A stretch of DNA of 64,000 bases from the human T2T-CHM13v2.0 reference genome, Homo sapiens (GCF_009914755.1 NC_060925.1), one strand, 5' to 3'. Shown: positions 31,862 through 39,789, counted from the first letter of the stretch. Program-made: numbers and translations. Notes: generated from the sequence alone by a model not told the origin.

Positions 31862-32393
31862 ATTTGTGTACCTGAAAGTGATGGGGAGAACCAAGTTGGA
31901 AAACACTCTGCAGGATATCATCCAGGAGAACTTCCCCAATCTAGCAAGGCAGGCCAACATTCAAATTCAGGAAATACAGAAAAGGCCACAAAGATACTCA
32001 TCAAGAAGAGCAACTCCAAGACACATAATTATCAGATTCACCAAAGTTGAAATGAAGGAAAAAATGTTAAGGGCAGCCAGAGAGAAAGGTCGGGTTGCCC
32101 ACAAAGGGAAGCCCATCAGACTAACAGCGGATCTCTTGGCAGAAACTCTACAAGCCAGAAGAGAGTGGGGGCCAATAATCAACATTCTTAAAGAAAATAA
32201 TTTTCAACCCAGAATTTCATATCCAGTCAAACTAAGCTTCATAAGTGAAAGAGAAATAAAATACTTTGCAGACAAGCAAATGCTGAGAGATTTTGTCACC
32301 ACCAGGCCTGCCCTAAAAGAGCTCCTGAAGGAAGCACTAAACATGGAAAGGAACAACCAGTACCAGCCACTGCAAAAACATGCCAAATTGTAA
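31862..32393 (+). pseudogene. L1 ORF1p C-terminal half (inner L1, inverted segment)
   Basis: [21 protein letters not shown]...YQPLQKHAKL. Confidence 0.92.
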
Positions 32394-32456
32394 AGACCAT
32401 CGATGCTAGGAAGAAACTGCATCACCTAACGAACAAAATAACCAGCTAACATCATA

Positions 32457-35341
32457 ATGAGAGGATCAAATTCAAACATAACAATATTTACCTTAAATGT
32501 AAATGGGCTAAATGCTCCAATTAAAAGGCACAGACTGGCAAATTGGCTGAAGAGTCAAGACCCATCAGTGTGCTGTGTTCAGGAAACCCATCTCATGTGC
32601 AGACACACACATAGGCTCAAAATAAAGGGATGGAGGAAGATCTCCCAAGCAAATGGAAAACAAAAAAAAGGTAGGGGTTGCAATCCTAGTCCCTGATAAA
32701 ACAGACTTTAAACCCACAAAGATCAAAAGAGAAAAAGAAGGCCATTGCGTAATGGTAAAGGAATCAATTCAACAAGAAGAGCTAACTATCCTAAACACAT
32801 ATGCACCCAATACAGGAGGATGTAGATTCATAAAGCAAGTCCTTAGAGACCTGCAAAGAGACTTAGACTCCCACACAATAATAATGGGAAACTTTAACAC
32901 CCCACTGTCAACATTAGACAGATCAATGAGACAGAAAGTTAACGAGGATATCCAGGAATTGAACTCAGCTCTGCAGCAAGAGGACCTAATAGACATCTAA
33001 AGAACTGTCCACCCCAAATCAACAGAATATACATTCTTTTCAGCACCACACCACACCTACTCCAAAATTGACCACATAGTTGGAAGTAAAGCACTCCTCA
33101 GCAAATGTAAAAGAACAGAAATTATAACAAACTATCTCTCAGAGCACAATGCAATCAAACTAGAACTCAGGATTAAGAAACTCACTCAAAACCACTCAAC
33201 TACATGGAAACTGAACAACCTGCTCCTGAATGACTACTGGGTACATAATGAAATGAAGGCAGAAATAAAGATGTTCTTTGAAACCAACGAGAACAAAGAA
33301 ACAACATACCAGAATCTCTGGGAGACATTCAAAGCAGTGTGTAGAGGGAAATTTATAGCACTAAATGCCCACAAGAGAAAGCAGAAAAGATCTAAAATTG
33401 ACACCCTGACATCACAATGAAAAGAACTAGGGAAGCAAGAGCAAACACATTCAAAAGCTAGCAGAAGGCAAGAAATAACTAAGATCAGAGCAGAACTGAA
33501 GGAAACAGAGACACAAAAAACCCTTCAAAAATTCAACGAATCCAGGAACTGGTTTTTTGAAAAGATCAACAAAATTGATGGACCAATAGCAAGACTAATA
33601 AAGAAGAGACAGAAGAATCAAATAGATGCAATAAAAAATGATAAAGGAGATATCACCACTGATCCCACAGAAATACAAACTACCATCAGAGAATACTATA
33701 AACACCTCTACGCAAATAAACTAGAAAATCTAGAAGAAATGGATAAATTCCTTGATACATACACCCTCCCAAGACTAAACCAGGAAGAAGTTGAATCCCT
33801 GAATAGACCAATAACAGGCTCTGAAATTGAGGCAATAATTAATATCTTACCAACCAAAAAAAGTCCAGGACCAGATGGATTCACAGCTAAATTCTACCAG
33901 AGGTACAAGGAGGAATTGGTACCATTCCTTCTGAAACTATTCCAATAAATAGAAAAAGAGGGAATCCTCCCTAATTCATTTTATGAGGCCAGCATCATCC
34001 TGATACCAAAGCCTGGCAGATACACAACAAAAAAAGAGAATTTTAGACCAATATCCCTGATGAACATCAATGCAGAAATCCTCAATAAAACACTGGCAAA
34101 CCAAATCCAGCAGCACATCAAAAAGCTTATCCACCATGATCAAGTGGGCTTCATCCCTGGGATGCAAGGCTGGTTCAACATACACAAATCAATAAATGTA
34201 ATCCAGCATATAAACAGAACCAGCAACAAAAAACACATAATTATCTCAATAGATGCAGAAAAGGCCTTTGACAAAATTCAACAACACTTCATGCTAAAAA
34301 CTCTCAATAAATTAGGTATTAATGGGATGTATCTCAAAATAATAAGAGCTATTTATGACAAACCCACAGCCAATATCATACTTAATGGGCAAAAACTGGA
34401 GGCATTCCCTTTGAAAACTGGCACAAGACAGGGATGCCCTCTCTCACCACTCCTATTCAATGTAGTGTTGGAAGTTCTGGCCAGGGCAATCAGGCAGGAG
34501 AAGGAAATAAAGGGTATTCAATTAAGAAAAGAGGAAGTCAAATTGTCCCTCTTTGCAGACGACATGATTGTATATCTAGAAAACCCCATCGTCTCAGCCC
34601 AAAATCTCCTTAAGCTTATAGGCAAGTTCAGCAAAGTCTCATACAAAATCAATGTGCAAAAATCACAAGCATTCTTATACACCAATAACAGACAGAGAGC
34701 CAAATCATGATTGAACTCCCATTCACAATTGCTTCAGAGAGAATAAAATAGCTAGGAATCCAACTTACAAGGGACGTGAAGGACCTCTTCAAGGAGAACT
34801 ACAAACCACTGCTCAAGGAAATAAAAGAGGATACAAATGAATGGAAGAACATTCCATGCTCATTGGTAGGAAGAACCAATATCGTGAAAATGTCGATACT
34901 GCCCAAGGTAATTTATAGATTCAATGCCATCCCCATCAAGCTACCAATAACTTTCTTCCCAGAATTGGAAAAAACTACTTCAATGTTCATATGGAACCAA
35001 AAAAGAGCCCACATTGCCGAGTCAATCCTAAGCCAAAAGAACAAAGCTGGAGACATCACACTACCTGACTTCAAACTATACTACAAAGCTGCAGTAACCA
35101 AAACAGCTTGGTACTTGCACCAAAACAGAGATATAGACCAATGGAAGAGAACAGAGCCCTCAGAAATACTGCCACATATCTACAACCATCTGATCTTTGA
35201 CAAACCTGACAAAAACAAGAAATGGGGAAAGGATTTCCTATTTAATAAATGGTGCTGGGAAAACTGGCTAGCCATATGTAGAAAGCTGAAACTGGAACCC
35301 TTCCTTACACCTTATGGAAAAATTAATTCAAGATGGATTAA
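32457..35341 (+). pseudogene. Disrupted L1 ORF2p EN-RT region (inner L1, inverted segment)
   Basis: EN motifs (TLNVNGLN, QETH) and RT motifs ([17 protein letters not shown]) with stops and frameshifts. Confidence 0.93.
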
Positions 35342-35357
35342 AGTTTCCTGACTTTTT

Positions 35358-38300: not shown

Positions 38301-38701
38301 AGATCTCTAAGGACTTGCTTTATGAATCTGCATCCTTCTGTATTGGGTGCATATATATTTAGGATAGTTAGCTCTTCTTGTTGAATTGATCCCTTCACCA
38401 TTATGTAATGACCTTCTTTGTCTCTTTTGATCTTTGTTGGTTTAAAGTCTGTTTTATCAGAGACTAAGGTTGTAACCCCTGCCTTTTTGTTTGTTTGTTT
38501 TCCATTTGCTTGGTAAATCTTCCTCCATCCCTCTATTTTGAGCCTATGTGTGTCTCTGCACATGATATGGGTCTCCTGAATACAGCACACTGATGGGTCT
38601 TGACTCTTTATCCAATTTGCCAGTCTGCATCTTTTAATTGGAGCATTTAGCCCATTTACATTTAAGGTAAATATTGTTATGTTTGAATTTGATCCTCTCA
38701 T
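35358..38701 (-). pseudogene. Disrupted L1 ORF2p (outer L1; C-terminus continues at 30717-30260)
   Basis: ORF pieces 38066-38701, 37222-37905, 36253-36840 and 35371-35976 in different frames. Confidence 0.93.
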
Positions 38702-38764
38702 TATGATGTTAGCTGGTTATTTTGCTTGTTAGTTGATGCAGTTTCTTCCTAGCCTCGATGGTCT

Positions 38765-39789
38765 TTACAATTTGGCATGTTTTTGCAGTGGCTGGTACTG
38801 GTTGTTCCTTTCCATGTTTAGTGCTTCCTTCAGGAGCTCTTGTAAGGCAGGCCTGGTGGTGACAAAATCTCTCAGCATTTGTTTGTCTGTAAAGGATTTT
38901 ATTTCTCCTTCACTTATGAAGCTTAGTTTGGCTGGATATGAAATTCTGGGTTGAAAATTATTTTCTTTAAGAATGTTGATTATTGGCCCCCACTCTCTTC
39001 TGGCTTGTAGAGTTTCTGCTGAGAGGTCTGCTGTTAGTCTGATGGGCTTCCCTTTGTGGGTAACCTGACCTTTCTCTCTGGCTGCCCTTAACATTTTTTC
39101 CTTCATTTCAACTTTGGTGAATCTGACAATTATGTGTCTTGGAGTTGCTCTTCTCGAGGAGTATCTTTGTGGCATTCTCTGTATTTCCTGAATTTGAAGT
39201 TGGCCTGCCTTGCTAGGTTGGGGAAGTTCTCCTGGATAATATCCTGCAGAGTGTTTTCCAACTTGGTTCCATTCTCCCCGTCACTTTCAGGTACAGCAAT
39301 CAGATGCAGATTTGGTCTTTTCACATAGTCCCATATTTATTGGAGGCTTTGTTCATTTCTTTTTACTCTTGTTTCTCTAAACTTCTCTTCTCACTTCATT
39401 TCATTCATTTGATCTTCAACCACTGATACCCTTTCTTCCACTTGATCAAATTGGCTACTGAAGCTTGTGCATGCATCACATAGTTCTCGTGCCATGGTTT
39501 TCAGTTCCATCAGGTCATTTAAGGACTTCTCTACACTGTTTATTCCAGTTAGCCATTCATCTAATCTTTTCTCAGGGTTTTTAGCTTCTTTGCAATGGGT
39601 TTGAACATCCTCCTTTTGCTCGGAGAAGTTTGTTATTACCGATTGTCTGAAGAATTCTTCTCTCAACTCATCAAAGTCATTCTCTGTCCAGCTTTGTTCC
39701 ATTGCTGGTGAGGAGTTGTGTTTCTTTGGAGGAGAAGAGGCACTCTGGTTTTTAGAATTTTCAGATTTTCTGCTCTGGTTTCTCCCCAT
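38765..39789 (-). pseudogene. Frameshifted L1 ORF1p (outer L1)
   Basis: MGRNQSRKSENSKNQSASSPP... through ...QKHAKL split over three frames. Confidence 0.93.

What the first reader, a model, noticed from the sequence alone, without database searches (positions are those of the whole stretch)
31862..39300. Two L1s of different subfamilies share patches of private mutations across a self-made inverted repeat: probable recurrent arm-to-arm gene conversion
Seen: the inverted part of the inner L1 and the outer L1 carry identical non-consensus alleles in five clusters (inner/outer positions): 32178,32198 / 38980,38960; 32461,32475,32489 / 38697,38683,38669; 32819,32821,32822 / 38334,38332,38331; 33548,33586 / 37610,37572; 34383,34401,34462 / 36784,36766,36705. 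In protein terms both read MRGSNSNITIF (canonical MTGSNSHITIL), GPIINILKENNF (canonical GPIFNILKEKNF) and GCRFIK (canonical APRFIK). Between clusters the copies keep subfamily differences (aaatacttt vs aaatccttt; ccctaaaag vs ccttacaag). Their 3'UTRs, in direct orientation, are clearly different subfamilies and I saw no such sharing there. Later private changes inside shared patches imply the exchanges are old. Inference: repeated short conversion or template-switch tracts, possibly with inversion toggling of the spacer, like a miniature Y-palindrome. Most shared alleles are transversions, so CpG convergence does not explain them. Consensus states are from memory.
Basis: partly seen in the sequence, partly recalled or inferred. 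Interest (0 to 1): 0.85.

Follow-up and report, generated by a model that had tools for sequence, protein, structure and literature searches.

The report
Sequence exchange between two nested L1s
A dead L1 retrotransposon landed inside an older one with its front half flipped, making a 3.5-kb inverted repeat, and the two arms have since copied short stretches of sequence from one another, a clear example of an already known process.

Summary
I found one more cluster (34959/34981/34984). The structure is an L1 on the minus strand, interrupted 0.68 kb from its 3' end by a second L1. The second L1 has an exact 16-bp target-site duplication and a twin-priming 5' inversion.

The two elements belong to different L1 lineages. 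Whole-genome exact scans show that the arms' haplotypes are almost private. The three-allele 29-mer has 2 exact matches, both arms, against 5,366 for the commonest form. No other locus carries more than one cluster.

The best reading is short non-reciprocal transfers between the arms, by gene conversion or replicative template switching. Five clusters holding 13 alleles are solid.

Not shown here:
- that the transfers were several events rather than one patchy event
- their ages
- any flipping of the spacer
- the names L1PA4/L1PA5

Exchange between neighbouring repeats is a known kind of process, so this is a clean new instance of moderate interest.

The parts
30048..30717 (-). Outer L1, 3' terminal piece (last ~0.67 kb), cut off from the rest of the element by the inner insertion
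   Evidence: Direct repeat with the inner 3' end, 88.7%; continues at 35342 after the duplicated 16-mer
30702..30717 (.). Left copy of the 16-bp target-site duplication AGTTTCCTGACTTTTT; the target reads TTTTT/AA
   Evidence: Exact 16-mer found only at 30702 and 35342 in the window
30718..31862 (-). Inner L1: T-rich remnant of the poly(A) tail (30718-30732) and the 3' segment in the same orientation as the outer element
   Evidence: 92-94% identical to the 3' ends of most of the 17 other L1 copies (range 89.6-94.4%)
31862..35341 (+). Inner L1: 5' segment inverted by twin priming (end of ORF1, start and first ~2.9 kb of ORF2); this is the left arm
   Evidence: In L032 its end lies 12 nt upstream of the start of the 3' segment
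35342..35357 (.). Right copy of the 16-bp target-site duplication
35342..35828 (-). Spacer of the inverted repeat: outer L1 sequence between the insertion site and the start of homology with the inverted segment
   Evidence: collinear with the right arm
35829..39300 (-). Outer L1, the part homologous to the inverted segment; this is the right arm. By the hub's repeat mask, the element runs on to about 39645
32139..32226 (.). Tract 1, left arm (partner 38932-39019): 88-bp identical run with shared alleles at 32178 and 32198
   Evidence: The 21-mer with both alleles has 5 exact genome matches, against 6,534 for the commonest form
32434..32527 (.). Tract 2, left arm (partner 38631-38724): 94-bp identical run with shared alleles at 32461, 32475 and 32489
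   Evidence: The 29-mer has 2 exact genome matches, both arms, against 5,366 for the commonest form
32817..32822 (.). Tract 3, left arm (partner 38331-38336): shared complex change GCACCC to GGATG(T/C), readable as a 4-bp micro-inversion on a C>T background. Arm-specific changes lie 3 bp before it and 1 bp after it
   Evidence: At up to 1 mismatch of a 24-mer the genome holds the two arms plus 2 other loci
34334..34465 (.). Tract 4, left arm (partner 36702-36833): 127-bp identical run with shared alleles at 34383 and 34401 and the outer-clade allele at 34353. Then comes one C>T in the inner arm, at a CpG that the shared allele 34462 created
   Evidence: Only the arms carry both alleles without another mismatch among 69 matches at up to 1 mismatch
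34955..34998 (.). Tract 5, left arm (partner 36173-36216): shared alleles at 34959, 34981 and 34984, with one outer-only change at 34983.
   Evidence: The 31-mer at up to 1 mismatch matches only the two arms in the genome

Best explanation
An older, 5'-truncated L1 lies on the minus strand. A second L1 of another lineage inserted into it by target-primed reverse transcription, 0.68 kb from its 3' end and in the same orientation. Twin priming inverted the second element's 5' 3.5 kb. That set the inverted segment against the homologous part of the host element, giving an inverted repeat with 3.5-kb arms, a 0.49-kb spacer and roughly 92-93% starting identity.

Each arm then picked up its own mutations. 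On one or several occasions, stretches of tens to about 130 bp were copied from one arm onto the other without reciprocity. Mutations that arose in only one arm therefore now sit in both. The copying step is either recombinational repair using the other arm as template (non-allelic gene conversion) or a switch of the replicating strand to the other arm and back. The sequence cannot tell these two apart.

Shown: the anatomy, the difference in lineage, the near-private shared alleles and their clustering. Inferred: the transfer itself, its direction (outer to inner in tract 4 only) and the number of events. Both elements are dead copies, so the amino-acid changes have no functional meaning.
For: Anatomy:
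- Exact 16-bp duplication at 30702-30717 and 35342-35357, the target TTTTT/AA, and a T-rich tail remnant.
- The inverted and 3' segments are adjacent in L1 coordinates, with 12 nt missing between them.

Different lineages:
- The tree places the inner with L032 and the outer with L062/L040/L033.
- The outer carries the allele of its clade at 38 of 53 diagnostic sites, the inner at 12 of 53.
- The inner is on average closer to 54 unlinked copies (93.8%) than to the outer (92.5%).

Shared rare alleles:
- 16 sites where both arms carry an allele found in at most 6% of 33-60 other copies, including 6 copies chosen for likeness to the outer.
- 11 of the 16 are transversions and none is at CpG.

Pair control: 11 such sites for inner-outer, against mean 0.65 and maximum 7 in the 495 other pairs.

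Clustering: (5 of 20,000 random placements; 2 of 50,000 shuffles). The three longest identical runs between the arms (127, 94 and 88 bp) each hold 2-3 of the shared alleles.

Whole-genome exact scans:
- Tract 2 haplotype: 2 matches, against 5,366 for the commonest form.
- Tract 1: 5 against 6,534.
- Tract 5: the arms only.
- Tract 4: the arms only without a further mismatch.
- Tract 3: the arms plus 2 loci.
- The 7 other loci are all different places, and the three I fetched share one cluster each.

Direction: 34353 T is the outer-clade allele (3 of 3 clade members, 3 of 32 others) and lies in tract 4.
Against: - Lengths of identical runs are not exceptional by themselves. The sum of the three longest is 309 bp, against a maximum of 303 in 50 unlinked pairs of like identity, and the longest run (127 bp) is reached by 2 of those 50.
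- At the level of clusters, the link with long runs is weak: 2,744 of 20,000 random draws reach the mean distinct-run length.
- Tracts 3 and 5 have arm-specific differences within 1-3 bp of shared alleles. This requires later mutation or very patchy repair.
- Tract 3's complex change occurs in one unrelated copy on C7, so it can recur or belong to a small lineage.
- The absence of shared rare alleles in the 1.1-kb direct-orientation control is significant per site (5.2 expected, my arithmetic). It is not significant per cluster (about 1.6 expected).
- The panel is the search tool's best-scoring subset (40 scored of 4,598, 24,807 and 26,214 candidates), not a random sample.
- Exact scans miss carriers that have two or more further mismatches.
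- No ortholog or second human haplotype could be examined.
Confidence: 0.82

Rival explanations
1. One event rather than several. A single long heteroduplex between the arms, possibly formed while the insertion was being resolved or in one later repair event, was corrected in patches and left several discontinuous converted stretches.
For: Differences sit 1-3 bp from shared alleles in tracts 3 and 5 and at 33584-33586, as patchy repair would leave them. Nothing in the data dates the tracts separately, and run lengths are not exceptional.
Against: - The clusters span 2.8 kb (32178-34984), with about 25 retained lineage differences between them.
- Some neighbouring differences are CpG transitions, which fit later decay. 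The C>T at 34461 is at a CpG that the shared allele itself created.
- If the exchange happened at insertion, the outer could have carried only the mutations it had at that time.
Confidence: 0.25
2. Both elements descend from one rare L1 source lineage that carried these alleles, and there was no exchange at this locus.
For: Individual haplotypes exist elsewhere: 3 other loci for tract 1, 1 locus with two of three alleles for tract 2, 2 loci for tract 3, and 1 locus for tract 4.
Against: - None of those 7 loci appears in two lists. The three I fetched are 78-91% identical to the arms and share one cluster each.
- The arms fall in different clades and differ at most clade-diagnostic sites.
- The 3' 1.1 kb has no shared rare allele.
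- The commonest haplotypes occur 5,366 and 6,534 times.
- Two of the very few carriers would have to lie one inside the other by chance.
Confidence: 0.04
3. Independent parallel mutation at hot spots in both arms.
For: About 2-3 coincidences are expected for two copies with these mutation loads. This is my scaling of the pair control; 6 sites were hit in both arms with different bases. The single sites 33548, 33586 and 33975 fit this. The micro-inversion of tract 3 has recurred or is shared at C7.
Against: 13 alleles lie in 5 tight clusters, mostly transversions and none at CpG. The triple-allele haplotypes of tracts 2 and 5 are found nowhere else in the genome at up to 1 mismatch with all three alleles.
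Confidence: 0.03
4. An assembly or polishing artefact copied variants of one arm onto the other.
For: None from these tools.
Against: The arms differ at about 9% of columns, including sites close to the shared alleles. Reads of several kb are therefore placed unambiguously. This is an inference; no reads were available.
Confidence: 0.03

Closest known systems
Non-allelic gene conversion between neighbouring transposable-element copies. It is best documented for Alu pairs within about 10 kb (Aleshin and Zhi 2010, as cited in passages I read in PMC6598467 and PMC8230782).
   Same: Short non-reciprocal transfer of non-diagnostic (private) mutations between two repeat copies a few kb apart, detected as shared non-consensus alleles.
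   Different: Here the partners are two L1s of different lineages, at about 92% identity, in inverted orientation, and nested one in the other. The arms are 3.5 kb rather than 0.3 kb, so several separate tracts can be seen within one pair.
Arm-to-arm gene conversion in large sex-chromosome palindromes (abstracts seen in the listing: PMC8600007, PMC8981503, bioRxiv 10.1101/800185).
   Same: Inverted arms with a short spacer exchange sequence non-reciprocally.
   Different: Those palindromes have arms above 10 kb kept at above 99% identity by frequent conversion, and they carry genes. Here the arms began about 7% apart and are still about 8-9% apart, only some 10% of their length shows exchange, and nothing is kept uniform or functional.
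Twin-primed (5'-inverted) L1 insertions (abstract of PMC2837659 seen in the listing; the original description by Ostertag and Kazazian 2001 is recalled, not read).
   Same: Inverted 5' segment joined to a 3' segment, poly(A) remnant, target-site duplication, and a small loss at the inversion point.
   Different: The target is itself an L1 in the same orientation, so the inversion creates a long inverted repeat with the host element.
Short-range template switching that creates mutation clusters (Loytynoja and Goldman 2017, PMC5453318; abstract and passages read).
   Same: A stretch is replaced by the reverse complement of nearby sequence, which shows up as a cluster of substitutions and makes inverted repeats more perfect.
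   Different: [quoted passage not shown] Here donor and recipient are 1.2 to 6.8 kb apart.

Membership tests
Twin-primed L1 insertion | Target-site duplication flanking the whole insertion | tested here: met
   Exact 16-mer at 30702-30717 and 35342-35357, found nowhere else in the window
Twin-primed L1 insertion | Poly(A) tail next to one duplication copy, and an L1 endonuclease-type target | tested here: met
   T-rich 15 nt at 30718-32 on the plus strand; the target reads TTTTT/AA. The consensus of the cleavage site is recalled
Twin-primed L1 insertion | The inverted 5' segment and the 3' segment are neighbours in L1 coordinates, with a small loss or overlap | tested here: met
   In L032 the arm ends at 1501 and the 3' segment starts at 1488, so 12 nt are missing
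Non-allelic gene conversion between nearby repeats | Both copies share derived alleles that other members of the family lack | tested here: met
   16 sites at no more than 6% in 33-60 copies; whole-genome haplotype counts
Non-allelic gene conversion between nearby repeats | The shared alleles lie in contiguous tracts | tested here: met
   Clustering tests; tract table. Run length alone is not exceptional
Non-allelic gene conversion between nearby repeats | The copies are otherwise of separate origin | tested here: met
   Different clades, and 38 against 12 of 53 diagnostic alleles
Non-allelic gene conversion between nearby repeats | Ancestral state before conversion seen in orthologs | not testable with these tools
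   No other primate genome or second human haplotype was on hand
Large palindrome kept uniform by arm-to-arm conversion | Arms above 99% identical over their length | tested here: not met
   91.2% over 3,501 columns
Large palindrome kept uniform by arm-to-arm conversion | Spacer found in both orientations among haplotypes or species | not testable with these tools
   Only one haplotype was available. It shows the original orientation and no swapped blocks
Short-range template switch (four-point model) | The replaced stretch equals the reverse complement of a nearby stretch | tested here: met
   The identical runs 32139-32226, 32434-32527 and 34334-34460 equal the reverse complement of the partner arm
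Short-range template switch (four-point model) | Donor nearby in primary sequence, within the same replication fork, as in PMC5453318 | tested here: not met
   Donor and recipient are 1.2-6.8 kb apart (coordinates)

The most novel reading that the evidence does not exclude
Inverted repeats made by an L1 landing in an L1 with twin priming may be natural, datable test beds showing that arm-to-arm copying goes on at only about 92% identity and across 1-7 kb. That is well below the identity, and well beyond the distance, usually assumed for homologous repair or for short-range template switching. It would point to a replication-coupled switch between the arms of long diverged inverted repeats as a regular source of clustered substitutions in old repeats. 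A genome-wide survey of such nested pairs, with direct-orientation pairs as controls, would measure it.
Probability: 0.2. Interest if true: 0.55.

Novelty: new member of a known kind. Interest (0 to 1): 0.35.

Why it matters
- The locus is a clean, fully resolved example in which the two partners of an exchange have independent, datable origins and a known starting difference. Transferred private mutations can therefore be told apart from inherited ones.
- Divergence from a consensus, the usual clock for repeats, can be shifted locally by exchange with a neighbour. Clusters of 'mutations' in old repeats can be copied rather than new.
- The process has no functional consequence for the host here. 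No gene is annotated within 100 kb and both elements are dead.
- If the pattern proved general for nested inverted repeats, it would bear on how diverged inverted repeats are tolerated and slowly homogenised.

Tried and rejected
- Long identical runs as evidence of recent conversion: rejected as stand-alone evidence, because unlinked pairs of like identity reach nearly the same values.
- The outer's own lineage as the source of the shared alleles: rejected. The 6 copies chosen for likeness to the outer, and the outer's clade mates, lack them.
- C7:52489923 (L067) as a relative of the outer. The fragment alignment seemed to show sharing at 33432-33627 and at 22 of 70 outer-only alleles. BLAST shows that L1 homology in L067 covers only arm positions 940-1433. 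I dropped those rows as misalignment; what remains is sharing of tract 3 only.
- A large early conversion of the distal 0.9 kb, where the arms are 95% identical and the outer's private load is low (12 and 18 substitutions per 435 bp, against 23-35 further in): not supported. The outer keeps its clade alleles at 31940, 32263, 32276, 32316, 32431 and 32585.
- Reciprocal swaps from crossovers between the arms: only two isolated candidate sites (32404, 33648), both common alleles.
- Subfamily names: no repeat library was available, so L1PA4/L1PA5 was not tested.
- Literature search for this particular arrangement (twin priming plus gene conversion plus inverted: 5 papers, none on it). The searches gave general reviews only.
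- Supplements were not consulted.
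Full report
**What is there.** Repeat finding and BLAST of the region against the window give a simple anatomy.
- From 30048 to 30717 the plus strand holds the reverse complement of an L1 3' end.
- From 30726 to 31862 it holds a second L1 3' end in the same orientation (88.7% identical to the first over 675 columns).
- From 31862 to 35341 L1 sequence runs in the opposite orientation.
- From 35342 the first element resumes where it broke off, and it runs on past 39300.

The 16-mer AGTTTCCTGACTTTTT occurs exactly twice in the window, at 30702-30717 and 35342-35357, on either side of the second element. The left copy is followed by a T-rich 15-nt tail remnant, and the uninterrupted target reads TTTTT/AA. 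In an ordinary genomic copy (L032), the sequence matching the end of the inverted segment lies 12 nt upstream of the sequence matching the start of the 3' segment.

This is a standard twin-primed L1 insertion into an older L1 of the same orientation. The inversion sets 3.5 kb of the newcomer (31862-35341) against the homologous part of the host (35829-39300), with 0.49 kb of host sequence as spacer. The arms are 91.2% identical over 3,501 alignment columns.

**The comparison set.** The window's own genome could be searched.
- A 501-bp query and the whole left arm each returned 30 loci. Only 40 of 4,598 and 40 of 24,807 candidates were scored.
I fetched the six best right-arm matches separately.
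- After dropping the window's own three loci, one duplicate locus (L025) and two rearranged copies (L007, L018), 54 inner-like and 6 outer-like copies were aligned with both arms. Coverage is 57-60 copies in the first two thirds of the arms and 33-35 in the last third.
- This set is the tool's best-scoring subset, not a random sample.

**The observation.** That base is carried by 0-4 of the other copies.

With a threshold of at most 6% carriers there are 16 such sites (S). There are also 24 sites where the arms share a commoner minority allele, 121 columns where only the inner departs from the majority, 193 where only the outer does, and 6 where both depart differently.

Eleven of the 16 are transversions and none is at a CpG of the majority sequence.

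**Is it more than chance?**
- Among 32 copies spanning the whole alignment, I counted for each of the 496 pairs the alleles shared by the pair and by at most one other copy. Inner-outer has 11, the highest. The other 495 pairs have mean 0.65 and maximum 7; the maximum is outer with its clade mate L062.
- Scaling the mean by the high private loads of the two arms (88 and 119, against a median near 57) predicts about 2-3 coincidences. This is my arithmetic.
- That number matches the three isolated single sites (33548, 33586, 33975). I therefore do not count them as evidence.
- The other 13 alleles lie in five tight clusters. 8 of 15 gaps between neighbouring S sites are 40 bp or less, which 5 of 20,000 random placements reach. 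Among 266 informative events there are 6 S-S adjacencies, which 2 of 50,000 shuffles reach.

**Are the alleles a lineage mark?** No.
- The two elements sit in different clades of a tree of the 32 copies.
- At 53 sites that separate the outer's clade (L062, L040, L033) from the rest, the outer has the clade allele at 38 and the inner at 12. Most of those 12 are alleles common in the rest as well.
- The six copies chosen for likeness to the outer lack the S alleles.

Whole-genome exact scans settle it.

| Cluster | Pattern scanned | Matches in the genome | Commonest panel form |
|---|---|---|---|
| Tract 1 | 21-mer with both alleles, exact | 5: the two arms and three other loci | 6,534 |
| Tract 2 | 29-mer with three alleles | 2 exact, both arms; one more locus at one mismatch, lacking the third allele | 5,366 |
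| Tract 3 | 24-mer, up to one mismatch | The arms plus two loci | not counted |
| Tract 4 | 26-mer, up to one mismatch | 69 places; 66 carry only one of the two alleles, the arms carry both, and one further locus carries both plus another mismatch | not counted |
| Tract 5 | 31-mer, up to one mismatch | Only the arms | not counted |

The seven other loci are seven different places, so none carries two clusters. I fetched three of them:
- The C7 copy is a 5'-truncated L1 with homology only from arm position 940 to 1433. It is about 90% identical to either arm over the main 392-bp match.
- The C5 copy is 88-89% identical to the arms.
- The C23 copy is 78-79% identical to the arms.
- Each shares one cluster and nothing else. 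Apparent sharing by the C7 copy beyond inner position 33294 is misalignment and was discarded.

**Control in direct orientation.** The 3' 1.1 kb of the two elements lies in direct orientation. Against 17 other copies, 1,137 classified columns hold 0 S sites, 9 commoner shared alleles, 47 inner-only columns, 68 outer-only columns and 1 double hit.
- At the density of the arms, 5.2 S sites would be expected, so their absence counts against a shared source lineage.
- Counted as events, only about 1.6 clusters would be expected, so the contrast between orientations is suggestive and no more.
- The direct pairs are also shorter and, in part, less similar.

**Tracts.**

| Tract | Left arm | Right arm | Content |
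|---|---|---|---|
| 1 | 32139-32226 | 38932-39019 | 88 bp identical, 2 alleles |
| 2 | 32434-32527 | 38631-38724 | 94 bp identical, 3 alleles |
| 3 | 32817-32822 | 38331-38336 | One complex change, GCACCC to GGATG(C/T). It reads as an inversion of CATC on the minority GCATCC background. An outer-only change lies 3 bp before it and an inner-only change directly after it |
| 4 | 34334-34460 | 36707-36833 | 127 bp identical, 2 alleles plus the outer-clade allele at 34353. It probably extends to 34465: the shared A>G at 34462 created a CpG, and the inner then changed it by C>T at 34461 |
| 5 | 34955-34998 | 36173-36216 | 3 alleles, with one outer-only change among them |

The three longest identical runs between the arms are exactly tracts 4, 2 and 1. 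Runs of this length also occur between unlinked copies of like identity. The sum of the top three is 309 bp, against a maximum of 303 in 50 such pairs, and the longest run is reached by 2 of 50. I therefore draw no conclusion about age from them.

Direction can be read only for tract 4, where the inner carries an allele of the outer's clade: outer to inner.

**Mechanism.** Mutations that arose in one arm now sit in both, in short stretches, while lineage differences persist between the stretches along the whole arm. That requires non-reciprocal copying from arm to arm after the insertion.
- Two routes give the same product. One is repair of a break or gap using the other arm as template (non-allelic gene conversion). 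The other is a transient switch of a replicating strand to the other arm. I cannot separate them.
- Several events are the simpler reading of clusters spread over 2.8 kb, with neighbouring CpG decay in places. One long heteroduplex repaired in patches is not excluded.
- I see no trace of crossover between the arms. The spacer is collinear with the outer element, and there is no block in which the arms have swapped lineage alleles. An even number of flips at the same point cannot be excluded.

**Comparison with what is known.**
- Exchange of private mutations between neighbouring repeats within about 10 kb is documented for Alu (passages read in PMC6598467 and PMC8230782, both citing Aleshin and Zhi 2010).
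- Arm-to-arm conversion is the hallmark of the large sex-chromosome palindromes (abstracts in the listing).
- Twin priming is the known source of 5'-inverted L1s (abstract of PMC2837659 in the listing).
- Template switching is an accepted source of clustered substitutions, but it is modelled for sequence nearby in primary sequence within one replication fork (PMC5453318, passages read).
- A search for twin priming together with gene conversion and 'inverted' found 5 papers, none about this arrangement.

The locus fails the defining feature of a maintained palindrome: its arms are 91% identical, not above 99%. It is best filed as a new instance of non-allelic exchange between neighbouring repeats, in an unusually readable setting.

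**Limits.**
- There were no orthologs, no second haplotype, no reads and no curated repeat library. Ages, direction for four of five tracts, number of events, polymorphism and subfamily names remain open.
- The panel is a best-hit subset.
- The exact scans miss carriers with additional mismatches.

**Verdict.** It is a known kind of process and of moderate interest.

Noticed in passing
window 32817-32823 and 38330-38336; L067 668-691 (G000:C7:52489923-52489946): The shared change GCACCC to GGATGC equals a 4-bp inversion (CATC to GATG) on the minority GCATCC background. The same string occurs in one unrelated, 5'-truncated L1 on C7 whose L1 homology begins only 16 bp upstream. Another copy, at C6:145103302, has AGCATGT. 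This may be a recurrent micro-inversion site.
   Followed up: partly
window 31862-35341 and 35829-39300: Both arms have longer terminal branches (0.047 and 0.055) than the median of the 32 compared copies (0.028). The 3' parts in direct orientation are similarly loaded: 47 and 68 private columns in 1,137. This points to a regional effect or a bias of the panel towards little-mutated copies, not to an effect of the inverted repeat.
   Followed up: partly
window 38430-39300 (right arm, distal part): The outer arm departs from the panel majority at only 12 and 18 substitutions in the two distal 435-bp windows, against 23-35 further in. The panel mean is flat at 11.5-15.8. The outer keeps its clade alleles there, so a large conversion is not the cause. 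Unexplained.
   Followed up: partly
G000:C23:62326225-62328589 and G000:C23:62942723-62944964 (hits, not fetched): Two other L1 copies show adjoining matches on opposite strands. They are likely further 5'-inverted insertions and could serve in a survey of inverted L1 arrangements.
   Followed up: no
window 39839-40790: Three adjoining masked blocks of about 300 bp, with G+C rising to 0.56 at 40000-40499 (hub annotation). They lie just beyond the 5' end of the outer L1 and look like a cluster of short GC-rich repeats. Not examined.
   Followed up: no
window 33584-33586 and 37572-37574: Next to the shared C>A at 33586, the CpG of the majority sequence has decayed differently in the two arms: CCG to CCA in the inner, and to CTG in the outer.
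   Followed up: partly
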